DNA from: an uncultured Clostridia bacterium
GTDB lineage: Bacteria > Bacillota > Clostridia > Christensenellales > UBA1242
Assembly (NCBI GenBank): GCA_944383915.1
Contig: CALWRJ010000023.1
Location: 74,274 to 138,273 of the forward strand
Direction: 5' to 3'
Length of the DNA stretch: 64,000 bases
Positions 522 to 50,482 of the stretch are shown here, in pieces (position 1 is the first letter of the stretch; the number at the start of each line of letters is the position of its first letter). A program made the position numbers and the translations under genes. Below the pieces are notes generated by a model. That model saw only the letters and a list, made by a program, of their open reading frames with translations. It was not told where the DNA came from and did not search any database.

Positions 522-2171
522 CTAACCTGACAAAACTCCAAGTTTTACCGAAATATTTACTAAATCTGCATTAATGTCTTCGAATATCGAAACGATTGAA
601 AAAAACAAATCATTGTTGTGCGAGTAATGCCCCGTTTTGCGATATTCGGAAAATGTCGATTTTTTGACTTTTTGGCACAACGAGAAAATTCGCTTGTTGC
701 TCTCCATTGCGCTTTTTAAAACTTTGTTTTCAAGATTTTCACCATTCATAAGGCTTTCGATTAAATCACTATCTAGTACATATAAATTGTTGATTTCCTC
801 AAATATTTTTATAAGTTCTTTTGACTGTTTATCATACAAATTTTTAGTTTTTTTAAGGACTTCGCTTCCTTCACTATATAGTATTCCCGCGCGATCGCTC
901 AAATACAAAATATCGTTTAGAATATTTAACAAAACATTAATTTTAGGTAGTTGACTCTCGCCCGCTTTACTTGACAGCCTAATCGCGTTGTTTGAAGTAA
1001 TTTTTATCACCTTATTTAAGCCTTTTAGTTTACCACTCAAACCGCGCGTGTCTTTTTTTTCAACAATTCGAGTAACGAGTTGCGCCTGTAAATCGCGCAT
1101 CATTTCCAAAAGTTTTTTGGTAGATTTGAGTAAAGACGGATAGCCGACACTAAACACCGCGACTGCGCTATCTGGTAAAGAAAATTCGCTATAAATATCG
1201 TCTTTCGATTTTTTCGCAGGCATTATTTTTATCATCATTTCGGACAAATATTTTGTAAAAGGTAAAAGTATAAGGCTTGGAATAGTCATTTGGACCATAT
1301 GTACTACAATTAAGGTCATCGTTGCATTTTCGTTAAACGCATTATAGATTGCCGAAGTAAAGGGCGTAAAGTAAAGCCAAAACAGAATTAGGAAGGAAAA
1401 TATTCTAAAAAGCAAATGGAATGTCGCCACGCGCTTTGCTTCAATTGTTTGCCCAGAAATTGTGTATACGAAATCAGAAAGCGCACAACCAACACCGACT
1501 GCCAACATTCCTAAAAATGCCGTATCAATGCTAATAGGTCCAGCACCAGCAGTCGCGCCAACTAGGGCAACTAAAACAGTTAAACTTGCAAATGTGCTAG
1601 TCGTCAAAAAACTAATCACAAGCCCAATTACTATTACAACTATCGGACTGCTTATACTACTTAAAAAGTTGTATACATTAGACAACGCAAATATTTCTGC
1701 CGAGTACCTACCTACAAGTTCGATACCTAAAAATAGCATACCAAAGCCCACGAGCGCTTGCCCTAACAACTTTGCTTTTTGCGATGTGAAAAAGAGTGAA
1801 ATTAGAGCACCAATCAAGCATAGAAGGGATAAATAAAGCGTCAAATTAAGCCCTTCAAACATCATTAACACCATCGAAAGCGCGCTACCAAAACTAATTC
1901 CTAGCACAAAGGCGATACTTTGGCGCTGACTAATTGTCCCCACATCGACAAACCCCATTATCATACCGCACGCAAGAGTCGCTTTTTGAGTCGCAAATGT
2001 CAGCCCACTGCTTACTAAATAACTTCGCACAGTGCTATTCGCTACGCGCGTAAAGTGTTTACCAAAACTCGAGCCTAGTACCGTCTCAAAAGACCTACTA
2101 AAAAGGGACATACCGTATAAAAGTATGCCTAAGCCAGCAAGCGCTATAATTACCATATAAAGAACGCTCAT
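522..2171 (-). CDS. Na/Pi-cotransporter family membrane protein with a soluble helical (PhoU-like) C-terminal region
   Basis: 549-aa ORF. The first ~330 aa are polytopic and hydrophobic, followed by a charged helical tail, an architecture typical of NptA/YjbB-type proteins. Called by overall resemblance only. Confidence 0.6.
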   Translation of the reverse strand: MSVLYMVIIALAGLGILLYGMSLFSRSFETVLGSSFGKHFTRVANSTVRSYLVSSGLTFATQKATLACGMIMGFVDVGTISQRQSIAFVLGISFGSALSMVLMMFEGLNLTLYLSLLCLIGALISLFFTSQKAKLLGQALVGFGMLFLGIELVGRYSAEIFALSNVYNFLSSISSPIVVIVIGLVISFLTTSTFASLTVLVALVGATAGAGPISIDTAFLGMLAVGVGCALSDFVYTISGQTIEAKRVATFHLLFRIFSFLILFWLYFTPFTSAIYNAFNENATMTLIVVHMVQMTIPSLILLPFTKYLSEMMIKIMPAKKSKDDIYSEFSLPDSAVAVFSVGYPSLLKSTKKLLEMMRDLQAQLVTRIVEKKDTRGLSGKLKGLNKVIKITSNNAIRLSSKAGESQLPKINVLLNILNDILYLSDRAGILYSEGSEVLKKTKNLYDKQSKELIKIFEEINNLYVLDSDLIESLMNGENLENKVLKSAMESNKRIFSLCQKVKKSTFSEYRKTGHYSHNNDLFFSIVSIFEDINADLVNISVKLGVLSG

Positions 2172-3930: not shown

Positions 3931-3978
3931 AATACTAATTATTGACTAAACTATTAAGTTTAAAACTAGCGTTTTAAA

Positions 3979-4372
3979 AATTAGCAATTAGAAATTAGGA
4001 ATTAGGGAGCGCTAGCGCGTATATGCGCGTAGCGCAAATTAGGAATTAGGAATTAGTAATTAGGAATTAGGAATTAAGGAGATATTATCTAAAATAATAT
4101 AATTAAATAATTTTTTGCCTTAATTCAAAGTTCAGCCGTGAGCCATTCACTTATGACAATTACTCTAACAATCGTCTGGCTTTCCGTATGCATTGCATAC
4201 TCCAAGGCAAAATTCAAAATTGCGCGTAGCCAAAGGCGAAGCGTACGCGCGCTTGCGCGCAAGCAATAGGTTTTAATATAATTTAGTGTTAACATAATAA
4301 AGAAATCCAATAAAATCTACGGGCTTCCGCGCGCTTGCGCGCTATTGGGAGTGCGCCTTCGCACCGCACCGC
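3979..4372. repeat. mosaic intergenic repeat block R1
   Basis: AATTAGN heptad arrays at 3979-4006 and 4037-4078, the AT-rich core 4075-4125, the 77-nt structured core 4131-4207, and GC hairpins (GCGCGCTTGCGCGC occurs twice). Confidence 0.9.
4131..4207 (-). repeat. conserved ~80-nt structured core of the composite repeat, copy B (inverted)
   Basis: Its reverse complement aligns with copy A over the full length, with about 10 differences. These include a paired G:C to A:T change in the first stem. Confidence 0.75.
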
Positions 4373-9694: not shown

Positions 9695-12433
9695 TTACAT
9701 CACACCACTGTTTCCGCTATCTGTTTGGTCATTTGCATTTGTATTTGTCGGCACAAAGCGAGCAATTATAAGTTTGCTTTCGGCGTTGGAAATGTCTAGG
9801 TCGATTGATTTATCCGTGCTAAATGGTGTATCTGCATCGGCATAATACCAGCCAATAAAATTGTATCCTGTGTAGCAAAATGCACTTAAATGAATATAAC
9901 TATCGCCTTCTGTGTAGCCGTTAATTCTTGCTTCTCCACCACCTATTGAAGCAACCGCAAAGTTTTCTAACAAACTATTTGCAAACACTGCAGTAACTGT
10001 GGTGTTTGCAGTGATGTTGTCTATAGTTAACGGGTTTGCTGTACTGGTAGTTATATTTCCGTCACCCCTATCAATTTGCCAGTATACAAAAGCATTGCCT
10101 CCTACGGCTAGCGCCATAATATTTGATACCGCACCACCACTTTGCACTTGAATTGTTGTAGAATTGCCTAACACATTATTTGCAAAAATTTGCCCAAGAG
10201 TGCTGTCGTTAGTGGTGACAACAACGTTAAATAAAAGCATATCAAACACTGCAGTGTATGTTGCATTTTCAGCAATATTTACCACATAACTCGTTTGATT
10301 TTCAGTACCTTCAATTATTGAATTTCCACCATCTAAACTCCAACCTAAAAAATCATTATCGCCTGCTTGTGTAGCACTAATAACTATTGAACTCCCTGCC
10401 ATATATTCACCACTATTATCACTTACTGCACCCCAATTTGTATTGTTGCTTTGAACTGTAATAGTTGTGTCTAAATCCATTAGTTCCATATTAGCACTTC
10501 TGTTTGTAAATTTAGAACTATGGGTGCTAGATGACGCATTAGTTAAACTTGTTTGGTCTTTTAAGTAATATGTTACATCAGCGTTACCATTTCTAAAAGC
10601 AAATGAGCCTATACTAGATGAAGCTGTTGTTATGGTGTTATAAAAATATACCGAGGTTAAACTGGTACAATCTCGAAACGCATTATTTCCAATGCTTGTG
10701 ACACTATCTCCTATTGTTACCGAGGTTAAACCGCGACAATATTCAAACGCAGAATCTCCTATGCTAGTGACACTATTAGGGATTGTTATCGAGGTTAAAC
10801 CGCTACAACTTCGAAACGCATTACTTCCTATGCTAGTGACACTATTAGGGATTGTTATCGAGGTTAAACTTGTACAGTAACTAAACGCATTACTTCCTAT
10901 GCTGGTGACACTATTTGGTATAATTATTAAGGTTAAACCTCTACAATCAGAAAACGCATATTCTCCTATGCTGGTAACACCATCAGGGATTGTTATCGAA
11001 GTTAAACCGCGACAATATTCAAACGCAGAATCTCCTATGCTGATGACACTATCTGGTATGTCTATCGAGATTAAACTGCTACAATAACCAAATGCAGAAT
11101 CTACTATGGTTATAGTTTCGTGTAATATTGTATATGTTGTATCTGTTTTACCTGCTGGATACTGTATGATAGCACTACCGTCTTTCGTATATAGTACTCC
11201 ATTATCATCCTTGTAGTTTAGATTGTCATTAGACACGTTTATTGATGTTAAGTTATCACAATTATTAAACACACCGTTTCCTATGCTGGTAACACTATCG
11301 GGAATTGTTACCGAAGTTAAACTGCTACAACCATAAAACGCATTTTCTCCTATGCTAGTGACACTATTAGGTAGTTCTATTGACTCTAAACTTTCACAAC
11401 TACCAAACACTTGATTCCCTATGCTGGTGACATTATTCCCAATTGTTACCGAAGTTAAATCATAACAACCAGAAAACGCATGATCTCCTATACTGGTGAC
11501 ACCATCACCAATTGTTGCCGAGATTAAACTAGTACAAAGATTAATCGCATACCTTCCTATACTAATTACACTATCGGGAATTGTTACTGAAGTTAAACCA
11601 TCACAACGACTAAATGCATAATCACCTATACTAGTTACATTATTGGGAATAGTTACTGAGGTTAAACCATCACAATCATAAAACGCATAATTTCCTATGC
11701 TGGTGACACTATCACCTATTGTTACCGAGGTTAAACCAGTACAACTATAAAACGCACCCTCTCCTATGCTGGTTGTTCCTTCTATTATAGAATATTCTCC
11801 CGTTCTACCTGCTGGATATAATACTATTGTTGTACCATCTTTAGAATATATTACTCCGTCTATACTTTGATATGTTTGGTTATTTGGATCAACTGTAATT
11901 GAGGTTAAACCGGTACAATTTCGAAATGCATAATTTCCTATGCTGGTAACACTATCGGGGATTTCTACCGAGGTTAAACTGGTACAATAATAAAACGCAT
12001 AACCTCCTATATTAGTAAGTCCGCTAGGTAAGGTTACACCTGTTATACGGGATCTAACTGAATAAAATACACCACTACTAGTTGAAGAGCTGTTATTCAT
12101 TGTTGTTATGTTATATGTTGCTCCGCTTATTGATACACTATTGGGTATTACCAAAGTTGTTGGTACTGAAGTACTATAATAATAAACTCTATCAAGACGA
12201 CAGACTCCTGAGCCTTCCTCGTAGTAAATAGTTAAATAATACTCATAATCACTTGATGTTGCAGTTGTTCCGTCTGCGTTTATGTATATATTAGTTGAAA
12301 GTGCATTAGCAGTTTGTTCCGTGTCTTTTGATAGAGAAACGCCTAAAATTATTCCACCGGCAACTAGAACTAGGGTGATTATACAGAGCATTGTGTAAAG
12401 TTTATATTTTTTAAAAATTTCTTTAATAGGCAT
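9695..12433 (-). CDS. BspA-type leucine-rich-repeat surface protein with C-terminal Listeria-Bacteroides (InlB B-type) repeats
   Basis: There is an N-terminal TM/signal segment. More than 20 units of the 23-aa repeat IPxSVTSIGxxAFxxCxxLTSVT follow. The C-terminal modules are of the GYNFIGWY / DFLGWSLDG ... TAVF type. Confidence 0.85.
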   Translation of the reverse strand: MPIKEIFKKYKLYTMLCIITLVLVAGGIILGVSLSKDTEQTANALSTNIYINADGTTATSSDYEYYLTIYYEEGSGVCRLDRVYYYSTSVPTTLVIPNSVSISGATYNITTMNNSSSTSSGVFYSVRSRITGVTLPSGLTNIGGYAFYYCTSLTSVEIPDSVTSIGNYAFRNCTGLTSITVDPNNQTYQSIDGVIYSKDGTTIVLYPAGRTGEYSIIEGTTSIGEGAFYSCTGLTSVTIGDSVTSIGNYAFYDCDGLTSVTIPNNVTSIGDYAFSRCDGLTSVTIPDSVISIGRYAINLCTSLISATIGDGVTSIGDHAFSGCYDLTSVTIGNNVTSIGNQVFGSCESLESIELPNSVTSIGENAFYGCSSLTSVTIPDSVTSIGNGVFNNCDNLTSINVSNDNLNYKDDNGVLYTKDGSAIIQYPAGKTDTTYTILHETITIVDSAFGYCSSLISIDIPDSVISIGDSAFEYCRGLTSITIPDGVTSIGEYAFSDCRGLTLIIIPNSVTSIGSNAFSYCTSLTSITIPNSVTSIGSNAFRSCSGLTSITIPNSVTSIGDSAFEYCRGLTSVTIGDSVTSIGNNAFRDCTSLTSVYFYNTITTASSSIGSFAFRNGNADVTYYLKDQTSLTNASSSTHSSKFTNRSANMELMDLDTTITVQSNNTNWGAVSDNSGEYMAGSSIVISATQAGDNDFLGWSLDGGNSIIEGTENQTSYVVNIAENATYTAVFDMLLFNVVVTTNDSTLGQIFANNVLGNSTTIQVQSGGAVSNIMALAVGGNAFVYWQIDRGDGNITTSTANPLTIDNITANTTVTAVFANSLLENFAVASIGGGEARINGYTEGDSYIHLSAFCYTGYNFIGWYYADADTPFSTDKSIDLDISNAESKLIIARFVPTNTNANDQTDSGNSGVM
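10690..11090 (-). repeat. near-identical 69-nt tandem units inside the LRR gene
   Basis: cctatgctagtgacactattagggattgttatcgaggttaaac recurs exactly at 10758 and 10827, and similar units continue on both sides. Confidence 0.8.
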
Positions 12434-12705
12434 TTAGATGCACCCCCTTTGGAAATGCAAAAAAGCGCAAGGGGTTGCGTCAAGATATTTTGTATCTATT
12501 TGTGTGTTTTTGAAAAGTGTTTTAAACTTGTTTGTATTTATTGCTTGGTAATTTAAACTTTTTCTTTTATTTGATGTTGTATTAATGTTTGTGGGAGTGG
12601 TTGTTTTAGGTGTAATGGTTGGAGATAAATACCCTTCCTTTACACCTATATTTTGTGCAGTTAAACAGCCTTTGGAGTGCCTTAAAACAAGTATTTTTGG
12701 GCTAT

Positions 12706-12759
12706 TTAAGCGCCCCCCCCCCAGCGAATTCTGGGAAGGGGAAATTGTACTTTTTGCAT
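12706..12759 (-). CDS. 17-codon upstream ORF that contains the G10 tract
   Basis: AAGGGGA, then 7 nt, then the ATG at 12757-12759. It translates as MQKVQFPLPRIRWGGGA and stops at the TAA at 12706-12708. Whether it is translated is unknown. Confidence 0.35.
   Translation of the reverse strand: MQKVQFPLPRIRWGGGA
12713..12722 (-). repeat. homopolymeric G10 (C10 on the plus strand)
   Basis: A run of 10 C read directly from the sequence. It is the longest G/C homopolymer I noticed in the window. Confidence 0.95.
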
Positions 12760-12796
12760 AATTCGTTCCCCTTTTACTTTATTATTTTATAAAAAT

Positions 12797-12824
12797 AGTA
12801 TACTCAAAAAGTTTAAATTTACAA
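12797..12824 (-). promoter_or_regulatory. sigma-70-type promoter for the uORF/LRR transcript
   Basis: On the minus strand, TTGTAA (12819-12824), a 16-nt spacer, then TATACT (12797-12802). It lies about 35 nt upstream of the uORF ATG. Confidence 0.45.
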
Positions 12825-12880
12825 AACAAAATCACCCATTTTTACAAAATTTCTTAAAATTTTTATATAAAATAAAGTAA

Positions 12881-12989
12881 AAATAAATAATATACCCAGC
12901 AATAACTGCTAATTGCTACCTGCTAATTGCTAATTCTCGCAAAGCGAGTAAGATTGCTACCTGCTAATTGCTAATTCTCGCAAAGCGAG
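12881..12989. repeat. mosaic intergenic repeat block R2
   Basis: ATATACCCAGCAATAA core fragment, then two tandem copies (42-nt period) of ATTGCTACCTGCTAATTGCTAATTCTCGCAAAGCGAG. Confidence 0.9.
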
Positions 12990-13013
12990 AAAAAACAAGC
13001 CCTTTGGCTTGTT
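12988..13013 (-). terminator. intrinsic terminator after the M23 peptidase gene
   Basis: AACAAGCC-CTTT-GGCTTGTT hairpin at 12994-13013, then TTTTTT on the minus strand. Confidence 0.75.
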
Positions 13014-13029
13014 TTTTAAGGCTTGTTTT

Positions 13030-13617
13030 TTATTTTTCTGCTAAATCAAGATAAAGTGCTGGGTCGACTGCTTCGCCATTAAGCAAGACTTCTAAGTGTA
13101 AGTGCGCGCCGTCATTCGCTTCTGATTTTGCAGTGTTGCTAACTTTCCCAATCACGCTTCCCTTTGTTACGGTGTCGCCCGCGCTAACAGGGACATCGCT
13201 AGCAAGTGAAGCATAGACAACGGTTATTCCACCACCGATGTCGAGTTTAACAATGTTGCCCATAAGGTAGTTGTAAGTTACTTCGGTAATAGTGCCGTCC
13301 ATAACTGCGTACACATCAGTGCCTTCCTCGGCAGAAAAATCAATCGCCTTGTGCGCTTGCCACAAATTTAGCGTGCTATTGTATTGAAGTGCCGAGTTTG
13401 AATAGTTTTTCATCAATTCCATTTCAGTAATCGGGCTTGAAAAACTAATTTCTGGCGTGTCAGTTGGGACGAAGTCGTCATCAACAACAGGTGCTGGCTT
13501 GTTTGTCGCCGCGATTGTTACGACCGTAATAAGTACAATGATACTAAGCCCTAACCCTATCCAATAACCGTATTTCTTTAAGAATTTTAAAAGCGTTGTC
13601 TTTAATTTTGCTTGCAT
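13030..13617 (-). CDS. M23 family peptidoglycan metalloendopeptidase
   Basis: N-terminal TM anchor. The LytM-domain motifs HKAIDF and GAHLHLEV are present. AAGGAGG RBS. Confidence 0.85.
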   Translation of the reverse strand: MQAKLKTTLLKFLKKYGYWIGLGLSIIVLITVVTIAATNKPAPVVDDDFVPTDTPEISFSSPITEMELMKNYSNSALQYNSTLNLWQAHKAIDFSAEEGTDVYAVMDGTITEVTYNYLMGNIVKLDIGGGITVVYASLASDVPVSAGDTVTKGSVIGKVSNTAKSEANDGAHLHLEVLLNGEAVDPALYLDLAEK

Positions 13618-17065: not shown

Positions 17066-17395
17066 CTTTAAATTTTGAACGAAGTTCAAAATTAACTAGC
17101 AATTAAGGCTTTACGCTTCGCCTTTCGGCTTCGCTCGAATTTTTCCTTGGAGTGTGCAATAATGCACACGGAAAGCCAGACGATAGTTAGAGTAATTGTC
17201 AATGTGAGTGGTTCACGGCTGAATTTCGAATTAGGAATTTTGAATTATTGCTGGGTATATTTTTTATTTTAGATAATATCTCCTTAATTCCTAATTCCTA
17301 ATTATTTCAGCCTTAACTGCTAATTGCTAATTGCTAATTGCTAATTCACGCTTTGCGTGGTAGATTGCTAATTGCTAATTTTTTTAAAATTTGTA
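17066..17395. repeat. mosaic intergenic repeat block R3
   Basis: AATTTTGAAC-GAA-GTTCAAAATT palindrome, the 79-nt structured core 17145-17223, the AT-rich core, CCTAATT and GCTAATT arrays, and a CACGCTTTGCGTG hairpin. Confidence 0.9.
17145..17223 (+). repeat. conserved ~80-nt structured core of the composite repeat, copy A
   Basis: CCTTGGAGTGTGCAATAATGCACACGGAAAGCCAGACGATAGTTAGAGTAATTGTCAATGTGAGTGGTTCACGGCTGAA. Three hairpins can be drawn from it. Confidence 0.75.
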
Positions 17396-17419: not shown

Positions 17420-18847
17420 TTATAAAATTCTAAACGAAGTTGTGCCGTCTTTATTGTCTTGCAATTCTACACCGAGTGCTATTATCTCGGCTTTTAATTC
17501 GTCTGCTTTTTTAAAGTCGCGTGCTTTTCGGTACTCGTTGCGCTCGTCAATTAAGCGCTGTACTCGTTCGGCGCGGTCGTCTTTTTTATTCTCGTGCAAA
17601 GTATCAAAACACTTAAAAATCTTGTCGATTTTTGCTAAATAATCTAAAATTTCCGCCTTGTTTTTCTCGTCATAGTCGTGCGCAGTAACGATAACATTAC
17701 CTTCTTTTATAAAATCGAAAAGTGATGCAATCGCGTTTGGCGTGTTAAAGTCGTCATTCATTTCACGCTCAAAAGAAGCACGAAAATTTGCTAACATTTG
17801 AGATAACTTTTCGTTATAATTACCACTTGCGTTTTGTTTTAAATTAAAAATGAAGTTGTCAATTCGTTCAAGCCCAGCACTGCTTGCGCGCATAACATTA
17901 TCCCCAAATTTTACGGGGCTACGGTAGTGACTGCTCACGAAAAACCACCTTAAAGCGCGCGCGCCGTAGCGAGCCATCGCGTCCTCAATAGTTACATAAT
18001 TCCCAGCCGATTTAGACATTTTACTACCGTCTTCGGCTAGGAGCATACCTGTATGCACCCAATAGTTTGCTGGTATATCGTGTCCTAATGCCCTACTCTG
18101 CGCAATTTCGTTTTCGTGGTGCGGAAATGCCAAATCTCGCCCGCCGCCGTGAATATCAAACTTGTCGCCCAAATATTTTGTACTCATAACAGTACACTCA
18201 ATGTGCCACCCAGGGTAGCCTTCACCCCAAGGACTGTCCCATTTCAAAACGGAATTTTTCTGCGCGCGCTTCCAAATTGTGAAATCATACGGAGAATGCT
18301 TGCCGTCTTTAACTTCGATTCTTGCGCCCGCGTTGAGATTTTCAAGAGTGTTACCACTCAAAATGCCGTAGTCCTTAATTTTCGAAACATCGCAGTAAAC
18401 ATCACCGTCAAGTTCGTACGCAACGCCGCGCTTTATCATTTCACTAACGGCTTCGATAATATCGATAATATGCCCAGTGGCGCGTGGTGAAATATTCGGG
18501 CGCGCGCAACGAAGGGAGTCGAGATAATACCACATTGCGCGAATATTTATATCGATTAATTCCATCGGGTGCAACTTCATCTCGTTCGCTTTCAAAACGA
18601 TTTTGTCGTCCCCCTGGTCAGCATCACCTACAATACTTCCAGCATCGGTAATATTGCGTACATAAAAAACTTTGTAGCCAAGATACTCAAAGTACTCTTT
18701 TATAACATCATAGCCAACATATGTTCGCGCGTGCCCCAAGTGTGGTGGCATATAAACAGTTACACCGCAGACATACATCTTGACTTCGTTATCAGTAACG
18801 CTTTTAAACTCTTGCTTACTTCGCGTAAGAGTATTATAAATTTGCAT
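17420..18847 (-). CDS. cysS: cysteine--tRNA ligase
   Basis: PHLGHARTY (HIGH) and KMSKSAGN (KMSKS) motifs. Start trimmed to MQIYNTLTR (ATG 18845-18847). Confidence 0.93.
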   Translation of the reverse strand: MQIYNTLTRSKQEFKSVTDNEVKMYVCGVTVYMPPHLGHARTYVGYDVIKEYFEYLGYKVFYVRNITDAGSIVGDADQGDDKIVLKANEMKLHPMELIDINIRAMWYYLDSLRCARPNISPRATGHIIDIIEAVSEMIKRGVAYELDGDVYCDVSKIKDYGILSGNTLENLNAGARIEVKDGKHSPYDFTIWKRAQKNSVLKWDSPWGEGYPGWHIECTVMSTKYLGDKFDIHGGGRDLAFPHHENEIAQSRALGHDIPANYWVHTGMLLAEDGSKMSKSAGNYVTIEDAMARYGARALRWFFVSSHYRSPVKFGDNVMRASSAGLERIDNFIFNLKQNASGNYNEKLSQMLANFRASFEREMNDDFNTPNAIASLFDFIKEGNVIVTAHDYDEKNKAEILDYLAKIDKIFKCFDTLHENKKDDRAERVQRLIDERNEYRKARDFKKADELKAEIIALGVELQDNKDGTTSFRIL

Positions 18848-18862
18848 AGTTACCCCCATAAA

Positions 18863-19203
18863 AAATTAGGAATTTTACTCGCTTTCGCTCCAATTTTGAA
18901 TTTTGAATTTTGAATTTTGAATTAAGGCTGGAATACCTAATTATAATATTTTAAGTAATAACTCCTTAACTGCTACCTGCTAATTGCTAATTGCTAATTT
19001 GAGCGTAGGGAATAAAATTTCTAATTAAATAATATCGTGAGAGTAAAACTCTTATAGTATGATAAAATCTAGCAGTTATTAGCATAATTATTTAGATATA
19101 TCAAAATTTCTAAAAGCGGAGTTAAATTAAATAAGTATAAGTAACAAGAAATTTTGTCCTTAATTCAAAATTCACAATTCAAAATTCGAGCGTCAGCGAT
19201 AAA
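18863..19203. repeat. mosaic intergenic repeat block R4
   Basis: AATTTTG x4, the AAGGCTGG...CTCCTTAA core, GCTAATT arrays, a second core-like unit, and AATTCAA arrays. Confidence 0.9.
18913..18992 (+). repeat. 80-nt perfect direct repeat, copy 1 (downstream flank of the ABC-F gene)
   Basis: Identical by eye, base for base, to 20880-20959. Confidence 0.9.
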
Positions 19204-20786: not shown

Positions 20787-20857
20787 TTTTGTACCCTTTT
20801 ACTTTTTTCTCGTTTCAGTCATTTATAAAATAAAATCTAAATACTCGATTGTGCGCA

Positions 20858-21056
20858 AAATTTTGAATTTTGAATTAGGAATTTTGAATTAAGGCTGGAA
20901 TACCTAATTATAATATTTTAAGTAATAACTCCTTAACTGCTACCTGCTAATTGCTAATTCTCGCTTTGCGTGGTAGATTCCTAATTTCTAATTCCTAATT
21001 AATTTTAGCCTTAACTGCTAATTGCTAATTGCTAATTCGCAACAAAGTTGCGGAAT
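20858..21056. repeat. mosaic intergenic repeat block R5
   Basis: Same modules as R4 (80 nt are identical), plus a CGCTTTGCG hairpin, CCTAATT/GCTAATT arrays and a CGCAAC-AAA-GTTGCG hairpin. Confidence 0.9.
20880..20959 (+). repeat. 80-nt perfect direct repeat, copy 2 (upstream flank of the ABC-F gene)
   Basis: Identical by eye, base for base, to 18913-18992. Confidence 0.9.
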
Positions 21057-22933: not shown

Positions 22934-23046
22934 AATTAGGAAATAGTAATTAGGAATTACGGAAGGTTATTATTCAAAATAAATAATATACCCAGTAATA
23001 ATTCAAAATTCAAAATTCGAGCACCAGCGAGTAAGACTGCTAATTT
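22934..23046. repeat. mosaic intergenic repeat block R6
   Basis: AATTAGG-type array, a core (ATAATATACCCAGTAATAA), then an AATTCAA array. The block runs into the MFS stop codon. Confidence 0.85.
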
Positions 23047-24518
23047 TTATCAGTATTTTCGTTAATTTCGTTGTTTTCGATATTTTCGATATTTTTGTTT
23101 GATTTTTCTGTATTTTCTGCTGTTTCAGTTTTATCAGTAATCTCGACTGTTTCTATTTTTTCAGTATTTTCTATATTTTCGCTAACATCATTTGTTTTTT
23201 CGGTATTATTTTCAATTAGTTTGTGTTTTGGCTTTTTGTAGCACATAAATACTATTAGTGCAAGAGCGGTAAATATAGTTACATACGGGAAAAGCCACTG
23301 GTAACCGAGAGCCTTAAAGAAAAATCCAACACAAATTGGCGTTATACTTTGTGCAAGCATACTAGCCGCGTAATACCAGCCCGTAAGTCTGCCTACATTT
23401 TGCTTGTCTGCCATTTCAACAACCATAGGATAACTATTTACATTCACCCACGCCCAGCCTACACCAGCAATAGCGATTAAGACATAAAGCACCCAAATAT
23501 TAGTAACAAAGCACGCGATAAAGACAGCGACTAGTAACATCGAAAGCCCAAGCACAATTGTCCACTTACGCCCAAGTTTATCCGCGATAAAACTGCCAGG
23601 GATAAAGCCGATAAGGCTTGCAACAGTCAATACGATTACCGCCATTCCCCACCAGCCCGTGTCTTGTCCTAAATACTGCGCGCCGTATGTCGAGCCGAAG
23701 GTTTCTATCGCATTAAAGGCAAAGAACCACAAGAAAATTGACCCGAGCAAAATTATTAGATTTCGCTTATCTAGTTTAGTTAGCGGACGATGTTCGGCAA
23801 GCGGTGTTTCGGTTTCGGAGAATGCTTCCCCTGCTTCCATTTCCGCCTTCGTTTCGGCTAAAATCTTGTTTTCCTTAATTTTTACCAACAAAATAACAAG
23901 CGCAACAATCATTAGTACCGCTGTCGCGACAAAAGGTATCCAAATCGTGTTTGTGTTGTACATAAGGACGCCATTTTCCCATTCCGCAGGAAAAAGTATT
24001 GCAAGAAGCCCTGCAAACATTCCCCCAATGTAGCCGAGTAGATTAATTATCGCGTTCGCCTTACTGCGTAGCGGTTTTGGTGTGATGTCTGGCATAAGCG
24101 ACACTGACGGCGAGCGGTAAATATTCATCGCAAGGAGCAAAAATGCCATTACTACAATCATCCAAATATATTGATTTACGATAAACAAAACAGCAATTAG
24201 CGGAAAAAGAATAACTGACGCAACAATTCCCGCAATTATGTATGGCATACGCTTACCTAGGCGCGATTTCGTATTGTCCGAAAGCCTACCAAAAAGTGGC
24301 AACATAAATAGTGCTAAAATGTTGTCCATCGCCATAATTATACCAACTAAATACGAGTGGTCCTCGGGCACACCGCCGAAAGTCTTTACAAAATAATCAC
24401 TTAAAAAAAGCGGACAGTAAGTATTATATATTTGCCAAAGCATCATAATCGTAAAAAACGCAAGCCCGATATAAATTGTGCGCTTAACATTTAATTTAAA
24501 TTTGGGAGTTTGTTCCAT
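23040..24518 (-). CDS. MFS transporter (GPH/SLC45-like) with a low-complexity acidic C-terminal tail
   Basis: About 12 hydrophobic segments. The loop motif GRLSDNTKSRLGKRMPY is present. The last ~60 aa are E/N/T/K-rich (ENTEKIETVEITDKTETAENTEK...NIENIENNEINEN). Confidence 0.75.
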   Translation of the reverse strand: MEQTPKFKLNVKRTIYIGLAFFTIMMLWQIYNTYCPLFLSDYFVKTFGGVPEDHSYLVGIIMAMDNILALFMLPLFGRLSDNTKSRLGKRMPYIIAGIVASVILFPLIAVLFIVNQYIWMIVVMAFLLLAMNIYRSPSVSLMPDITPKPLRSKANAIINLLGYIGGMFAGLLAILFPAEWENGVLMYNTNTIWIPFVATAVLMIVALVILLVKIKENKILAETKAEMEAGEAFSETETPLAEHRPLTKLDKRNLIILLGSIFLWFFAFNAIETFGSTYGAQYLGQDTGWWGMAVIVLTVASLIGFIPGSFIADKLGRKWTIVLGLSMLLVAVFIACFVTNIWVLYVLIAIAGVGWAWVNVNSYPMVVEMADKQNVGRLTGWYYAASMLAQSITPICVGFFFKALGYQWLFPYVTIFTALALIVFMCYKKPKHKLIENNTEKTNDVSENIENTEKIETVEITDKTETAENTEKSNKNIENIENNEINENTDKN

Positions 24519-24785
24519 AATAACTTCCTTTTAAATTTAATTTCCTTTTTAAGCAAAACTAAAACACTTTTAGTAGAGTTGCTAGCAAAAACTCTTTTAG
24601 CAAAATGTTATTCGTTTAAAGTAAATTTTTTTACAGTGTCATTTTTTAATAAAAATCAAACTTAATTTTATAGTGTTGTTTTTTAATAAAAAATATTTAG
24701 TATAATATTAAAACTGCTTTCCTTTTGCCCATACTATAATTTTATTTTATCAAATTTAAACTTTATAAGCAAGCAAATTTAGATT

Positions 24786-25042
24786 AATTAGTAATTAGGA
24801 ATTAGGAATTAGGAATTTCGGGGCGCGTGCGCGCAAGCATATGTGCTTAGCGCAAATTAAGAATTAGGAATTTTATTCGCTTCGCTTAAATTAGCAATTA
24901 GTAATTAGCAATTAGCAGTTAAGGCTTAGCGCTTCGCGCAATTTTGAATTAGAAATTTTGAATTTTGAATTATTACTGGGTATATTATTTATTTTAGATA
25001 ATAACTCCACAATTCCTAATTACTAATTCCTAATTTCTAATT
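24786..25042. repeat. mosaic intergenic repeat block R7, bounded by 32-nt inverted heptad arms
   Basis: 24786-24817 matches the reverse complement of 25011-25042 at 30 of 32 positions. GC hairpins, AATTAGC and AATTTTG arrays and the core lie between the arms. Confidence 0.9.
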
Positions 25043-25059
25043 TTTTCTGCGTGAATACT

Positions 25060-25369: not shown

Positions 25370-28300
25370 CTAATTCCTTCCTGCAAATGCTACACGTGCT
25401 GAACCATTATCAAAGCGATCGTAATCACCGCCCCACACTTCATCCGTAGAACCTCTTAAATTATATCTAAGAGAAAACGATGCAGAACCTCCAGAACTTA
25501 ATGAGCGTGTAGAATCATTAGAACCAAAAGATGCCGTTTTAGATGGTCCATCTCCAAGTATTGAATGAGTATCTGTACATCTTATAGATCCCCCACTAAT
25601 TCTTACGTCAAATGAAAAACTACCAGGAAGTTCTGAACATGATACAGTAATTGATACACTTATATCATAATATGATTGATAATTTATCCAGTTTGTTGTA
25701 GATTCATATATAACGCCACCTGTTACTTTTGCGGATACATAGTTCATTACATTATCCGATCCCGTATAGACTTTTTGACCTGCTTTAAAGGCTTTTATCC
25801 CACTTCCTGGCGAGATATTTACAGTATCACTCCAACTGCTTTGACCACCAAACGCTGGTCCAAAGCCTGGCTTACAATATACTGTTACAGTCATTCTAAG
25901 CGTATTGACATCTTGACTAAATGTTAGATTCGTGCCAGATTGTGAACCAGTAGACCCCGAACTACTAAAGTTTGATGGAATTTCTTGCTCAACTCCTTCC
26001 GTAGCCTGTGCTCCACTAAATCCATAAGTCCATTCAGCATCTATAGAAGCACCGCCCATATTTGAATAACTTGTTTTTACTCCTGTAATGGTTTGCCAAC
26101 TTGCTTGAGTAGTTGCTTCTTGCACTATTTTTGAATTATCTGGAGCACTAGGATCCCATACCCAATCACCATATGCAGCAATACCATCTCCACCCTTATC
26201 TACAATCGTAGGTGTACCGATATTTGCACTCGGGTGGTATGGAATTTCAAAGAATATATCTGTTGAGTATGAATAATATACAGGGAGCAAATTATGCGCT
26301 TCATCATAACCATCGTGTACAGGGATAACTGTAAAGTAGTTTGTACCACCCTGGATATTACCTATATAGTTTGTATAACCACTATACAAGCATCTACTTA
26401 CCGTTGCCGCGTCATATGATTGGCTCGCAAAAGCATCAGCACTGCCCGAACTAAAAGTCCACGAAGCCGTGTAGGTATAAGTGCTAGTAGCCTTATTTAC
26501 AGTAACTGTTGCGCTAGTTTCTTTTGCTTGACCTGCTAGGTTGTACTGGTCTAGTGTAACTTGCAAAGTGCCAAGTTGGTTGTTAGCAGAGAAATTTGCT
26601 TCCATATAGATAGTACTTCCACTTACGCTAAAATCAATTCGGCTAGTATCAAATGGCAACTCTCGATAATAGTTTAAAATTAAGCCATTTGAGAAATCAC
26701 TTTCAAGCACATAGTCATTTGAATAATCAGTCGTTACCCTATCAAATTTAACGTAGATTATAAAGCCGTCTGACGCTCGAATTTCGGGGTTATCAACTAG
26801 ATAATCGTTTATAAAGTTGTTTAGCATATTGTAGTACTCACTAGCCGATGTTGACGGACTAATTGTGTACCATTCATCAATACTAATTGTCCGTTGTGAA
26901 TACGGATAATAATATCTAAATGTTACCCTGTTTGGAGCCATATTGTATGGTTGCCCAGTTTTATCTTGAGTAGTTGAGTAATTTTTCCATAGAGCTTCGC
27001 CTTGGTAACCATTTTGCAAAATACTAGATGTAAGCGCTGCAACAGTACCGCGAGAAGTATTTGCTAGTGGTTCCATATCGATTGTTAACGATTCAATGTC
27101 CATTTTTAATTTTAATGTAACGGTGTAATATAAGTCTTTACTATTGTATCCCCTACCTACATAAGTCATTGAGTCATCAACAGCAGCGATAATATTAATT
27201 AACCATCTATCGTTTTGATTTGCTGGCAACTCCCATTGATTGTAGTAACTACTATCAGTATAAGGGTCACCAACATCAATTTTTAAAATATCCGTTAGAT
27301 TTTTAATGTTAGAGGTATTAGTATTATTCGGCGAAAGAGTACAAGCGCTACGCACAATTCCGTTGTCAATACTATATGTTTCGTGGTCTGGTCTTGTTAG
27401 GTAAACATAGTAATTTACATTACGACTAATAGTCCTATATTGTAGCGGAATGTAGTTTTGGTAGTAGTAGTAGTAACCTTGCTCACGATAGAATGATGAA
27501 ATTTCATCATTATACTGCTCGGTACTAAATGTGCAGTTATTTTGGTTGAAGTCTGTTTGCACGGTTTCAAGTCTTGAATAGAAGTAGAATGAGTAAGTAC
27601 CGCTATTTGATTCGCTCGCCCAATCACTTGACACCCAGTTTAATGCTGAACTACCACTTGGTGCTACGGTGCGGATATCAATAGTAATTAGTCCGCCGTG
27701 GTAAAGTCCACTTGAAAGTGGAGTGTCCTCGTTAATAAGGTTGAATATTCTCTCATATAGACAAGATACTGAATACAAATAAATGTCGCGGTAATTTGTG
27801 TAGTCGTACCTTGCAGTGTCTGTGTCTTTTCCACTTGATAATGCGCTAGCCAACTCCTCGGCGAACCGTCCAGACATAATGTTGTCATTGTACCCTTGTA
27901 GCAATGTGTAATCGGTATACATAGTTGCGTTTACATCACGAGTATTTAAGGTGAATGTTTCCGTCTTATCTCCATAAGTAAGCCTTATCTCGTAAACGGT
28001 GTTTGCGTTAGTTGCAAGCATACCATATTCAAATTCTTGTCCGCCGAGTCCCTCTAAATCTTTTCGGCTCGTGTACATATACGGGTTTGTTGCAAGCCCT
28101 GAGTATTCATATCCGCTAATATTTCCGTAGTTTGGCGCAAGGTTTGTGTCGTAAGTTGTTCCGTTTACTTCAATACTACTCATATTATAGTACTGTTCGA
28201 GGTCACTATTCATAGTATCAAACATCAAGTGCACTGAAGGTGCGGTGTATTGTTTTTGAATAGATAAATAGTCAAGACTTTCGGAGCGTTTAGACGAAAC

Positions 28301-47221: not shown

Positions 47222-47595
47222 AAATTAGTCGCTACGCCCTACGGCTTCGCTTAATTTTGAATTGTGAATTTTGAATTTTGAATTATGGGGCGCGTGCGCG
47301 CAAGCCCCTAACAATTAGTAATTAGAAAGCTTATTCGCTACACTCAAATTAGCAATTAGCAGTTAAGGATGAAATAATTAGGAATTAGAAATTAGGAATT
47401 AGGAATTAAGGCTGAAATATTCTAATTATAAATTTTTGGTAATATTTCCTTAATTCACAATTCAAAATTAAAGCAAGCCGAAAGGCGAAGCGTACAGCCT
47501 TAACTGCTAATTGCTAATTCACGCTTTGCGTGGCAGATTGCTCATTGCTAATTCTCAACGGAGTTGCGGAAAGCGAAGCGTAAAAGGCGGAACGA
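47222..47595. repeat. mosaic intergenic repeat block R9
   Basis: AATTTTG/AATTGTG arrays, a GGGGCGCGTGCGCGCAAGCCCC hairpin, AATTAGC/AATTAGG arrays, the core, and a CACGCTTTGCGTG hairpin. Confidence 0.9.
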
Positions 47596-48991: not shown

Positions 48992-48997
48992 TATTTT

Positions 48998-50468: not shown

Positions 50469-50482
50469 GCAACTTATTAAAT

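What the first reader, a model, noticed from the sequence alone, without database searches (positions are those of the whole stretch)
12434..12824. G10 tract in an upstream ORF: +1 G opens a 108-codon frame ending TAA-ATG at the LRR adhesin start
Reading the minus strand, the elements come in this order.
- A promoter-like TTGTAA-16-TATACT at 12797-12824.
- AAGGGGA and an ATG at 12759.
- A 17-codon ORF, MQKVQFPLPRIRWGGGA, that reads through G10 (12713-12722) and stops at 12706-12708.
The frame reached by adding one G (or removing two) has no stop for 114 codons (12437-12778). It ends at the TAA at 12434-12436, which directly abuts the ATG of the 912-aa LRR surface protein (TAAATG). My rough estimate assumes about 6-7 percent stop codons per random codon at this base composition. 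On that basis a 114-codon open run by chance has a probability of order 1e-3 to 1e-4. Either this is a slipped-strand phase-variation switch, in which tract length sets whether ribosomes are delivered to the LRR start, or the homopolymer length is a sequencing error and a real ~108-aa leader protein is translationally coupled to the adhesin. The predicted peptide is basic and low-complexity (TPKTTTPTNINTTSNKRK...), so coding potential is not self-evident.
Basis: partly seen in the sequence, partly recalled or inferred. Interest (0 to 1): 0.7.

Follow-up and report, generated by a model that had tools for sequence, protein, structure and literature searches.

The report
Poly-G switch in an adhesin leader ORF
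A run of ten G's sits inside a roughly 108-codon reading frame just upstream of a leucine-rich-repeat surface-protein gene in an uncultured Clostridia bacterium; related strains carry 9, 10, 11 or 12 G's in both in-frame and out-of-frame states, so it looks like a heritable on/off switch that probably acts by letting ribosomes reach the adhesin start or stopping them early.

Summary
Four related metagenome loci and one database protein carry the same unit: a conserved promoter, ribosome-binding site and ATG, a C/U-rich arm, a poly-G tract, a long open frame, a terminator hairpin and a BspA-type LRR gene. The tract is G9, G10, G10, G11 or G12. The ATG is in frame in L001, L002, L003 and P0002, and one base short in the window and L021. 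A conserved TTAAATAG/TTGAATAG motif gives stops in both wrong frames straight after the tract. This is the only G/C run of 7 or more in 196 kb of this clade.

The long frame stays open in all five DNA loci across non-homologous middle segments (shuffle P 0.0004-0.007 each), and its length differs only by multiples of 3. It shows no protein-level constraint: dN/dS is 0.77 against 0.05 for the adjacent LRR codons, and the AlphaFold model has no fold. It crosses a C-rich, G-poor stretch, a terminator hairpin and, in the window, a hairpin that buries the LRR ribosome-binding site.

Best reading: a slipped-strand phase switch in a translated leader ORF that gates adhesin expression through coupling or attenuation. 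Read-level switching and the downstream effect are untested. I rate it a new variant of a known kind.

The parts
12797..12824 (-). Promoter-like site TTGTAA-16-TATACT
   Evidence: Both hexamers (TTGTAA or TTGTAT, and TATACT) and the 16-nt spacing are kept in L001, L002, L003 and L021, while the spacer sequence varies.
12757..12773 (-). Ribosome-binding site AAGGGGA (12773-12767) and the leader-ORF start ATG (12759-12757)
   Evidence: AAAAGGGGAA, 7-8 nt, then ATG is invariant in all five DNA loci.
12706..12759 (-). Short ORF of the present OFF allele: 17 codons plus TAA
   Evidence: L021 shows the same OFF reading.
12713..12742 (-). Hairpin of UCCCCUUCCCA (12742-12732), an 8-nt loop, and U + G10 (12723-12713). 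The G10 tract itself is 12713-12722.
   Evidence: The hairpin is predicted in all five loci at -17 to -24 kcal/mol. The single change in the C arm (C to U in L001) keeps a G-U pair. It is the only G/C run of 7 or more in 196 kb.
12702..12709 (-). TTAAATAG motif, which gives TAA (12708-12706) in the -1 frame and TAG (12704-12702) in the +1 frame immediately after the tract
   Evidence: Read directly. The motif is TTAAATAG in the window, L001, L003 and L021, and TTGAATAG in L002, where TAA has become TGA and is still a stop.
12437..12778 (-). Long open frame of 114 stop-free codons, or 108 codons from the ATG when the tract is G11
   Evidence: Homologous ORFs P0001-P0004 and P0125 were found. 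The frame is open in all five loci, and the distance from the tract to the terminator is 2 mod 3 in each.
12547..12624 (-). C-rich, G-poor stretch (22 C, 2 G in 78 nt) with the composition of a Rho-loading (rut) site
   Evidence: It ties with one other region for the highest C/G ratio on the minus strand of the window and has the largest C count. A C>G stretch with a ratio of 5-10 is kept in all five loci even though the middle sequences differ.
12459..12479 (-). Terminator-like hairpin CGCAA-CCCC-TTGCG (12479-12466) followed by C and T6 (12464-12459), inside the long frame
   Evidence: The 22-nt core is identical in all five loci. The stem is 5 bp (-4.5 kcal/mol) in the window and L001, and 7 bp (-8.9) in L002, L003 and L021.
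12439..12459 (-). Predicted hairpin UGCAUUUCC-AAA-GGGGGUGCA, which sequesters the LRR gene's ribosome-binding site
   Evidence: -9.7 kcal/mol in the window and -7.7 in L001, where a C to U change keeps a G-U pair. It is not clearly conserved in L021.
12431..12436 (-). TAA-ATG junction: the leader-ORF stop abuts the LRR start in the same frame
   Evidence: The junction is the same in L001. In L021 the ORF overlaps the LRR start by 11 nt.
9695..12433 (-). 912-aa BspA-type LRR surface protein with an N-terminal signal or anchor segment; the presumed regulated gene
   Evidence: LRR_5 E = 3.7e-153; Flg_new_2. An LRR gene with the same N-terminus follows the element in all five loci.

Best explanation
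The element is a self-contained regulatory cassette that travels with a BspA-type LRR adhesin gene. In order it holds a promoter, a ribosome-binding site and ATG, a hypermutable poly-G tract, a leader ORF of roughly 90-110 codons, an intrinsic-terminator hairpin and the LRR gene.

Proposed mechanism:
- Slipped-strand gain or loss of a G puts the ATG in or out of frame with the long ORF.
- In frame (ON), ribosomes translate across a C-rich, G-poor stretch, across the terminator hairpin and, in the window type, across the hairpin that hides the LRR ribosome-binding site. They stop at the TAA that abuts the LRR ATG. The transcript is thereby protected from termination or polarity, and the LRR start is opened.
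- Out of frame (OFF, as in the window at G10), ribosomes stop 2-4 codons after the tract. About 270 nt of leader is left bare, and LRR expression falls.
- The peptide itself is probably irrelevant. What is selected is that the frame stays open.

Shown here: the anatomy, tract-length polymorphism, the existence of ON and OFF alleles, frame preservation, and the lack of constraint on the amino-acid sequence.

Inferred only: that switching happens within populations, and that translation of the leader controls LRR expression.
For: 1. Hypermutable tract. Lengths are G9 (L021), G10 (window, L001), G11 (L002) and G12 (L003). This is the only G/C run of 7 or more in 196 kb of window and related loci.

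2. Both states exist. The distance from the ATG to the AATAGCC anchor is 54 nt (in frame) in L001, L002 and L003. It is built from three different combinations of upstream length, tract length and downstream length: 38+10+6, 38+11+5 and 37+12+5. It is 53 nt, one G short, in the window and L021. P0002 is also in frame.

3. Stops in both wrong frames within 2-4 codons of the tract are kept in all five loci, including a TAA to TGA change in L002.

4. The frame is kept open.
- There are 72-112 codons after the tract with no stop, against 3-11 stops in each other frame. Shuffle P is 0.0004-0.007 per locus.
- The middle segments are non-homologous between the types.
- The distance from tract to terminator is 242, 242, 263, 206 and 296 nt. 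All are 2 mod 3.

5. There is no constraint on the protein.
- dN/dS is 0.77, with differences of 16, 9 and 10 at the three codon positions (window vs L001). The adjacent LRR codons give dN/dS 0.05 and differences of 4, 1 and 16.
- Codon-usage score is 0.09-0.20 per codon, between genes (0.44) and intergenic sequence (-0.27).
- AlphaFold mean pLDDT is 41.6 with no secondary structure.

6. The terminator core is identical in all five loci and lies inside or at the end of the ORF. A hairpin over the LRR ribosome-binding site is predicted in the window and L001. A C>G stretch is kept in all loci.

7. No promoter-like site lies between the tract and the LRR start in the window or in L002.

8. The cassette always precedes an LRR gene, and does so in two different genomic contexts: between the M23 peptidase and ACP genes, and after recR.

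9. Established precedent, from my own knowledge:
- Translation of the pyrBI leader ORF through its attenuator suppresses termination.
- The rph-1 frameshift in E. coli K-12 lowers pyrE expression by uncoupling translation from the attenuator.
The Rho review PMC12360218 covers uORF-dependent control of Rho termination.
Against: - Ascertainment bias. Four of the five relatives were found through called ORFs, which favours in-frame, open alleles. Only L021 (OFF) was caught through a fortuitous upstream start.
- All sequences come from short-read assemblies, so homopolymer lengths may be miscalled. No read-level data were available.
- The sample is small: five DNA loci in two or three lineages.
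- The terminator stem is only 5 bp (-4.5 kcal/mol) in the window and L001.
- The hairpin over the ribosome-binding site is not clearly kept in L021 and does not apply to L002 or L003.
- In L002 and L003 about 400 nt separate the ORF from the LRR gene, so coupling cannot be direct there.
- A leader ORF of around 100 codons is unusually long for a regulatory uORF.
- dN/dS for L002 vs L003 is 0.29, which leaves room for some selection on the peptide.
- Whether this organism has Rho was not checked.
Confidence: 0.55

Rival explanations
1. The long frame is a stand-alone small protein gene of about 108 aa, basic and disordered, with its own function. The window's G10 is then a consensus or assembly error, or a simple frameshift pseudogene, and the LRR gene merely lies downstream.
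For: - Gene callers predicted the ORF in four other assemblies.
- It has its own promoter, ribosome-binding site and terminator.
- In L002 and L003 it ends at the terminator about 400 nt before the LRR gene.
- The N-terminal 40 residues are conserved.
- dN/dS is 0.29 for L002 vs L003.
Against: - dN/dS is 0.77 with no excess of third-position changes for window vs L001, while the neighbouring codons give 0.05.
- The middle 60 residues are not alignable between the types.
- There is no Pfam match, no predicted fold and weak codon usage.
- An exhaustive profile search of 1.84 billion proteins found only three clusters.
- Two of five DNA loci are out of frame at the same tract.
- The C arm is conserved at nucleotide level although it is read in different frames in different loci.
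- The ORF is always followed by an LRR gene.
Confidence: 0.15
2. The element is a non-coding structured 5' leader or small RNA. The G tract matters as the 3' arm of a hairpin with the C/U-rich segment, a cis version of a G-repeat paired by a C/U-rich RNA. The open frame would then be a by-product of T/G-poor composition.
For: - The whole leader folds better than shuffles (z = -3.98).
- The C-arm/G-tract hairpin is predicted in all five loci.
- Overall divergence of the leader is about 11%, far below synonymous divergence next door (pS 0.56).
- Substitutions are spread evenly over codon positions.
- G-repeats in 5' UTRs targeted by small RNAs are known (statement in PMC12721329).
Against: - No Rfam family matches.
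- No compensatory base-pair changes were seen.
- It does not explain several conserved features:
  - the ribosome-binding site and ATG;
  - stops in both wrong frames directly after the tract;
  - an open frame across three unrelated middle segments;
  - lengths that stay in register modulo 3.
- The low divergence may reflect recombination mosaicism. L002 and L003 differ by 1.2% downstream of the terminator but by 12% in the ORF.
Confidence: 0.12
3. The switch acts at RNA level rather than DNA level. RNA-polymerase slippage on the G run, or ribosomal frameshifting on GGG GGG GGG, yields a fixed fraction of in-frame products from any allele. Genomic tract-length differences would then only tune that fraction.
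For: - The run is as long as the RNA-DNA hybrid (9-10 bp).
- A nascent-RNA hairpin that includes the run is predicted in all loci.
- Slippage stimulated by a nascent hairpin is documented for a Roseiflexus IS630 element (PMC5009743).
Against: - Efficient slippage in bacteria is documented mainly for A/T runs.
- In the documented case the hairpin lies beside the slippery run, not within it.
- Genomic lengths really do differ between loci, together with compensating indels, which points to DNA-level change.
Confidence: 0.08

Closest known systems
Contingency loci with simple sequence repeats (homopolymeric-tract phase variation, e.g. poly-G genes of Campylobacter, Neisseria and Haemophilus)
   Same: - A long homopolymer far above the genomic background.
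- Tract length differs among strains.
- Length changes shift a reading frame.
- The gene under control encodes a surface adhesin-like protein.
   Different: - The tract lies in a separate upstream ORF, not in the structural gene or its core promoter.
- The host is an uncultured Clostridia lineage. In Clostridia, documented phase variation is mainly by invertible DNA; the C. difficile examples in PMC11868660 and PMC12360218 are inversion-based.
- The 2025 phase-variation review PMC11868660 contains none of the words leader, upstream ORF, translational coupling or terminator.
Translation-coupled transcription attenuation (E. coli pyrBI leader; the rph-pyrE attenuator and the rph-1 frameshift) and uORF-dependent control of Rho termination (tnaC, speFL; PMC12360218)
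   Same: - A leader ORF runs up to or through a terminator or Rho-loading (rut) region ahead of the structural gene.
- Whether ribosomes get that far decides downstream expression.
- rph-1 shows that a frameshift in the upstream ORF can lower expression of the downstream gene.
   Different: - In those systems the input is a metabolite or NTP level acting on ribosome or polymerase pausing. Here the input would be a heritable, reversible frameshift at a repeat.
- The leader ORF is about 100 codons, against 14-44.
Clostridioides difficile cwpV and flgB switches (invertible DNA in the leader that creates a terminator or Rho-dependent termination in one orientation)
   Same: - The host belongs to Clostridia.
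- Control of a surface structure is stochastic ON/OFF.
- Control acts after transcription initiation, through termination in a long leader (PMC12360218).
   Different: - Those switches work by site-specific DNA inversion by a recombinase.
- Here there are no inverted repeats flanking a switch and no recombinase. A poly-G tract and a translated ORF take their place.
Helicobacter pylori tlpB G-repeat regulated by the C/U-rich small RNA RepG; H. influenzae hmw 5'-UTR repeats (PMC12721329)
   Same: - A G-repeat of variable length lies in an mRNA leader.
- It is paired by a C/U-rich RNA segment.
- Repeat length sets post-transcriptional output.
   Different: - The C/U-rich partner is in cis, 8 nt upstream, rather than a trans-acting small RNA.
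- The repeat lies inside a translated ORF, with stops in both alternative frames.
Operon polarity from a phase-variable first gene (e.g. hpuA poly-G affecting hpuB in Neisseria; from my own knowledge)
   Same: A frameshift at a poly-G tract in the upstream ORF reduces expression of the downstream gene.
   Different: There the upstream gene encodes a functional lipoprotein partner. Here the upstream ORF shows no protein-level constraint.

Membership tests
SSR (homopolymer) phase-variable contingency locus | A repeat tract much longer than the genome background | tested here: met
   G/C runs in the window number 100, 21 and 2 at lengths 4, 5 and 6, followed by a single run of 10. This is the only G/C run of 7 or more in 196 kb of window and related loci.
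SSR (homopolymer) phase-variable contingency locus | Tract placed so that a change in length alters expression (frame or promoter spacing) | tested here: met
   The tract lies 37-38 nt after a conserved ribosome-binding site and ATG. One frame is open for about 90 further codons, and both other frames stop within 2-4 codons.
SSR (homopolymer) phase-variable contingency locus | Tract length polymorphic among related strains, with ON and OFF alleles | tested here: met
   G9, G10, G10, G11 and G12 are seen. Three DNA loci and P0002 are in frame; the window and L021 are out of frame. Caveats: these are assembled consensus sequences, and ascertainment is biased.
SSR (homopolymer) phase-variable contingency locus | High-frequency reversible switching within a clonal population, with a change in phenotype | not testable with these tools
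   No reads or cultures were available.
Leader-ORF (translation-coupled) transcription attenuator | A translated leader ORF with its own ribosome-binding site and start, between the promoter and the structural gene | tested here: met
   The promoter hexamers with 16-nt spacing, the ribosome-binding site and the ATG are conserved in five loci. Frame preservation argues for translation, but translation itself was not observed.
Leader-ORF (translation-coupled) transcription attenuator | An intrinsic terminator within or at the end of the leader ORF, upstream of the structural gene | tested here: met
   A hairpin with a T6 run lies at 12479-12459. The core is identical in all loci. The stem is weak (5 bp, -4.5 kcal/mol) in the window and L001, and 7 bp (-8.9) in the others.
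Leader-ORF (translation-coupled) transcription attenuator | No independent promoter for the structural gene downstream of the attenuator | tested here: inconclusive
   The consensus scan found none on the coding strand in the window (12434-12796) or in the 400-nt spacer of L002. A consensus scan cannot exclude weak promoters or promoters for alternative sigma factors.
Leader-ORF (translation-coupled) transcription attenuator | Read-through of the terminator depends on translation of the leader | not testable with these tools
   Needs reporter or transcript assays.
Translational coupling through a sequestered ribosome-binding site | Upstream stop adjacent to or overlapping the downstream start | tested here: met
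   The junction is TAAATG in the window and L001, and an 11-nt overlap in L021. This is not met in L002 or L003, which have a gap of about 400 nt.
Translational coupling through a sequestered ribosome-binding site | The downstream ribosome-binding site is buried in a structure that upstream ribosomes must melt | tested here: inconclusive
   A 9-bp hairpin, UGCAUUUCC-AAA-GGGGGUGCA, is predicted in the window (-9.7 kcal/mol) and L001 (-7.7). It is not the preferred fold in L021.
Rho-dependent polarity (rut site exposed when untranslated) | A C-rich, G-poor unstructured stretch of about 80 nt in the untranslated part | tested here: met
   Positions 12547-12624 hold 22 C and 2 G. This ties with one other region for the highest C/G ratio on the minus strand of the window. 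Ratios of 5-10 are kept in all five loci. This is composition only.
Rho-dependent polarity (rut site exposed when untranslated) | The organism encodes Rho, and termination depends on Rho | not tested
   No rho gene was looked for. The genome outside the window is not available.
Described RNA families (Rfam 15) | Match at the gathering score | tested here: not met
   There were no matches in the window at gathering thresholds. No sub-threshold hit fell on the minus-strand leader (12437-12790). The strongest sub-threshold hits elsewhere were to the repeat region at 12868-13064.

The most novel reading that the evidence does not exclude
The C/U-rich arm and the G run form a hairpin in the nascent RNA while the polymerase is still on the run. 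This would drive programmed transcriptional slippage, so a single genotype would produce a set mix of in-frame and out-of-frame leader mRNAs. Genomic tract length would tune that mix. The result would be a two-layer (DNA and RNA) stochastic switch in which a sequence-unconstrained 'spacer' ORF carries ribosomes over a Rho-loading (rut) stretch, a terminator and a buried ribosome-binding site to license an adhesin gene.
Probability: 0.1. Interest if true: 0.8.

Novelty: new variant of a known kind. Interest (0 to 1): 0.6.

Why it matters
Repeat-driven phase variation is usually placed either inside the structural gene or in its promoter. Here the repeat sits in a long translated leader whose peptide seems dispensable. 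A heritable frameshift would therefore be read out through transcription-translation coupling, involving a terminator, a Rho-like stretch and ribosome-binding-site occlusion.

If confirmed, this would add a mechanistic category that links contingency loci to attenuation. It would also extend poly-G phase variation to uncultured gut-type Clostridia, where BspA-like LRR adhesins are abundant and their regulation is unknown.

There is a practical point too. Gene callers annotate such leaders as hypothetical proteins or miss them, depending on the allele. The same locus breaks metagenome assemblies (L022, L025).

Tried and rejected
- Rfam at gathering and permissive thresholds gave nothing on the leader. 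The only sub-threshold hits (rliE and others) fall on the heptamer-repeat region at 12868-13064 and are probably spurious.
- A blast of the leader against the rest of the window found no paralogous copy. Only the upstream repeat region recurs.
- Exact-protein look-ups of the window's M23 peptidase and LRR proteins, and of P0002, returned no record.
- Scans of genome contigs and metagenome contigs with a protein profile and with a 26-nt conserved DNA pattern returned 0 loci. The element appears restricted to a few ENA and NCBI assemblies.
- An attempt at unbiased sampling through neighbouring genes did not reach the tract.
  - M23 homologues at 76-83% identity belong to related species that lack the cassette entirely, with M23 followed directly by the ACP gene.
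  - Look-ups with the ACP and SpoIIT proteins found contigs of the same species, but these break before the leader.
- A profile search with the LRR N-terminus found nothing, so that search was wasted.
- RNAalifold on four and on five sequences found conserved helices but no compensatory pairs. RNA structure beyond the C/G hairpin is unproven.
- AlphaFold on the four-sequence alignment gave mean pLDDT 41.6 and no fold. No fold search was therefore run.
- I considered that the ORF might be an N-terminal extension of the LRR protein, because TAA and ATG are in the same frame. I rejected this for three reasons:
  - The LRR N-terminus is a typical signal or anchor segment with its own ribosome-binding site.
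  - L021 uses a different frame.
  - L002 and L003 are separated from the LRR gene by 400 nt.
- A search for the sample accessions in the literature found nothing.
Full report
**1. The observation**

- TTGTAA-16-TATACT lies at 12824-12797.
- The ribosome-binding site AAGGGGA lies at 12773-12767, and the ATG at 12759.
- A 17-codon ORF, MQKVQFPLPRIRWGGGA, runs through G10 (12722-12713) to TAA at 12708-12706.
- The frame reached by adding one G has no stop from 12778 to 12437 (114 codons). It ends at TAA 12436-12434, which directly abuts the ATG of the 912-aa ORF at 9695-12433.
- That ORF is a BspA-type LRR_5 protein (E = 3.7e-153) with Flg_new_2 repeats.
- With G11 the ORF from the ATG is 108 codons.

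In the window alone the open frame is only moderately unusual. Dinucleotide-preserving shuffles keep the 90 codons after the tract open in 0.6% of trials. Stop-free runs of 100 codons or more are common antisense to genes.

The G10 run is a clear outlier. G/C runs number 100, 21 and 2 at lengths 4, 5 and 6, and then there is one run of 10.

A terminator-like hairpin, CGCAA-CCCC-TTGCG with a T6 run, lies at 12479-12459 inside the open frame. The G tract is also the 3' arm of a strong hairpin with UCCCCUUCCCA at 12742-12732.

**2. Relatives**

A protein search with the G11 translation found four called ORFs: P0001 (81% identity), P0002 (79%), P0003 (47%) and P0004 (45%). An exhaustive profile search of 1.84 billion representative proteins added only P0125, so the family is tiny.

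DNA was recovered for L001, L002, L003 and L021. All four carry the same parts in order:
- the promoter hexamers with 16-nt spacing, while the spacer sequence varies;
- AAAAGGGGAA, 7-8 nt, then ATG;
- the C/U-rich arm;
- a poly-G tract;
- a conserved block of about 80 nt;
- a variable middle segment;
- an identical 22-nt terminator core;
- an LRR gene with the same N-terminal signal or anchor segment.

Related species whose M23 peptidase is 76-83% identical have the M23 gene followed directly by the ACP gene, with no cassette. In L021 the cassette sits after dnaX-ybaB-recR. The leader and LRR gene therefore behave as one accessory unit.

L002 and L003 have about 400 nt between the terminator and the LRR gene. 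The window, L001, P0002 and L021 join them directly.

M23 peptidase homologues at 58-71% identity are labelled 'MAG: Clostridia bacterium'.

**3. The tract and the frame**

| Locus | Tract | ATG to tract (nt) | Tract to AATAGCC (nt) | ATG to AATAGCC (nt) | State |
|---|---|---|---|---|---|
| L021 | G9 | 38 | 6 | 53 | OFF |
| window | G10 | 37 | 6 | 53 | OFF |
| L001 | G10 | 38 | 6 | 54 | ON |
| L002 | G11 | 38 | 5 | 54 | ON |
| L003 | G12 | 37 | 5 | 54 | ON |

Three different combinations give the in-frame total of 54 nt. The window and L021 are each one G short. P0002 is in frame.

L021 was caught only because a spurious upstream GTG opens the long frame, so it is a near-unbiased OFF example.

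Directly after the tract, TTAAATAG places TAA in one wrong frame and TAG in the other. L002 has TTGAATAG, in which TAA has become TGA and is still a stop.

These are the only G/C runs of 7 or more in 196 kb of window and fetched loci.

Together these features are what a slipped-strand contingency switch looks like. The caveat is that all lengths are assembly consensus sequences and that most relatives were found through called ORFs.

**4. Is the long frame translated, and is the peptide functional?**

The frame is kept open.
- After the tract, 72-112 codons carry no stop in any of the five loci. The other two frames carry 3-11 stops each.
- Shuffle P is 0.0004-0.007 per locus.
- The middle segments are not alignable between the window/L001 type and the L002/L003/L021 type.
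- The distance from the AATAGCC anchor to the end of the terminator core is 242, 242, 263, 206 and 296 nt. All are 2 mod 3, so every length difference is a multiple of 3.

The sequence is not constrained as a protein.
- Window vs L001 gives dN/dS 0.77, with differences of 16, 9 and 10 over the three codon positions. Shifted frames give 0.54 and 0.94.
- The 41 LRR codons next door give dN/dS 0.05 and differences of 4, 1 and 16.
- L002 vs L003 gives 0.29, which is not significantly different from an even spread.
- The codon-usage log-likelihood is 0.09-0.20 per codon. Real genes average 0.44 (5th percentile 0.27) and intergenic frames average -0.27.
- AlphaFold gives mean pLDDT 41.6, pTM 0.11 and no secondary structure.
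- There is no Pfam domain.
- The C arm is invariant at nucleotide level even though a 1-nt indel upstream makes different loci read it in different frames.

The simplest reconciliation is that the openness of the frame is selected, not the peptide.

**5. What the ribosome would cross**

Downstream of the OFF stop lie three features.
- A C-rich, G-poor stretch at 12547-12624 holds 22 C and 2 G. It ties with one other region for the highest C/G ratio on this strand of the window. A comparable stretch, with a C/G ratio of 5-10, is kept in all loci despite their different sequences. This is the composition of a Rho-loading (rut) site, but composition is all that was tested.
- The terminator hairpin is 5 bp (-4.5 kcal/mol) in the window and L001, and 7 bp (-8.9) in the others.
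- In the window and L001, a 9-bp hairpin UGCAUUUCC-AAA-GGGGGUGCA pairs the LRR ribosome-binding site (-9.7 and -7.7 kcal/mol). The one difference between them is a G-C to G-U change.

No promoter-like site lies between the tract and the LRR start in the window, nor in the 400-nt spacer of L002.

**6. Mechanism proposed**

In frame, ribosomes starting at 12759 translate the whole leader. They cover the C-rich stretch, prevent the terminator hairpin from forming or override it, and melt the hairpin over the ribosome-binding site. They terminate at the TAA that touches the LRR ATG, and the LRR gene is expressed.

Out of frame, ribosomes stop at 12708-12706. About 270 nt of leader is then untranslated, termination or polarity and occlusion of the ribosome-binding site apply, and LRR expression is low.

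Shown here: the parts, their conservation, tract polymorphism, ON and OFF alleles, and frame preservation without peptide constraint. Inferred only: switching within populations and any effect on LRR expression.

Precedents, from established knowledge:
- The pyrBI leader ORF, whose translation through the attenuator suppresses termination.
- The rph-1 frameshift, which lowers pyrE expression by uncoupling translation from the attenuator.

The Rho review (PMC12360218) covers two further precedents:
- uORF-dependent control of Rho termination.
- Phase variation through termination in leaders, in both cases driven by invertible DNA (fim in E. coli, flgB in C. difficile).

**7. Rival explanations**

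*A real small protein whose tract was mis-sequenced.* This is favoured by its own promoter and terminator and by the L002/L003 architecture. It is disfavoured by the selection tests, by the two OFF alleles and by the constant association with an LRR gene.

*A non-coding structured leader in which the G tract is a hairpin arm.* This would be a cis analogue of the G-repeat and C/U-rich small-RNA pairing mentioned in PMC12721329.
- In favour: the fold z-score of -3.98, and low overall divergence relative to neighbouring synonymous sites.
- Against: it leaves the ribosome-binding site and ATG, the stops in both wrong frames, the open frame and the modulo-3 lengths unexplained. No covariation was found and there is no Rfam match.

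*RNA-level slippage or ribosomal frameshifting on the run.* This is not excluded. Slippage stimulated by a nascent hairpin is known for a Roseiflexus IS630 element (PMC5009743).

**8. Novelty and verdict**

Poly-G phase variation of surface proteins is well known. Leader-ORF attenuation and translational coupling are well known too. Placing the repeat in a long, sequence-unconstrained leader ORF, so that a heritable frameshift is read out through transcription-translation coupling, is not among the categories I could find. A 2025 review of phase variation contains none of the words leader, upstream ORF, terminator or translational coupling. The host is an uncultured Clostridia lineage.

I class it as a new variant of a known kind, with interest about 0.6. 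Confidence is about 0.55 in the full mechanism and higher, about 0.7, in the narrower claim that this is a hypermutable tract toggling a translated leader ORF.

Noticed in passing
window 12880-12990, 3976-4078, 17219-17349, 18889-19189, 20856-21040, 24783-25045, 47250-47472, 48571-48995, 50480-50892: Intergenic regions carry 27 arrays of three or more heptamers AATTNNN (AATTAGC, AATTCAA, AATTCCT and their complements). The arrays flank short GC hairpins such as CACGCAAAGCGTG. None lies inside an ORF although 86% of the window is coding. This looks like a family of REP- or MITE-like intergenic repeats. Loci from related species gave no blast hit to the copy at 12880-12990.
   Followed up: partly
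window 9695-12830, compared with L004-L020 and L021: The leader and LRR gene form an accessory insertion between the M23 peptidase and ACP genes. Related species have M23 followed directly by ACP. In L021 the same cassette sits after dnaX-ybaB-recR. The locus is mosaic: L002 is 94% identical to the window upstream and in the first 120 nt of the ORF, then unrelated until the terminator. L002 and L003 differ by 12% in the ORF but by 1.2% in the 400 nt after it.
   Followed up: partly
L022 position 1 (18 nt before the LRR ATG); L025 position 1 (inside the M23 gene): Metagenome contigs of the same species end at or next to the leader and repeat region. This suggests strain heterogeneity or assembly breaks caused by repeats at this locus.
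   Followed up: no
window 12431-12436: The leader ORF and the LRR ORF are in the same frame and separated by a single TAA. Stop-codon read-through would therefore fuse them. The same holds in L001, but not in L021 (11-nt overlap in another frame) or in L002 and L003.
   Followed up: partly
L002 586-1000, L003 382-796: A 400-nt AT-rich spacer lies between the terminator and the LRR gene in two loci. It has no match in the window and no promoter-like site on the coding strand. Its origin and role are unknown.
   Followed up: partly
window 522-2171, 17420-18859, 23040-24518: Three ORFs of similar size (549, 479 and 492 aa) each contain an antisense 124-aa GTG ORF at the same relative place. This suggests a paralogous gene family. 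Pfam was not run on them.
   Followed up: no
window 25370-38779, 39252-46811, 52987-63957: There are giant ORFs of 4469, 2519 and 3656 aa on the minus strand, presumably surface proteins. Their upstream regions carry the heptamer repeats but have no poly-G leader.
   Followed up: no
window 12868-13064 (+): A sub-threshold Rfam hit to Listeria rliE (38.6 bits against a gathering score of 90, E = 1.8e-4) falls on the heptamer-repeat and terminator region. It is most likely driven by the repeats and by composition.
   Followed up: no
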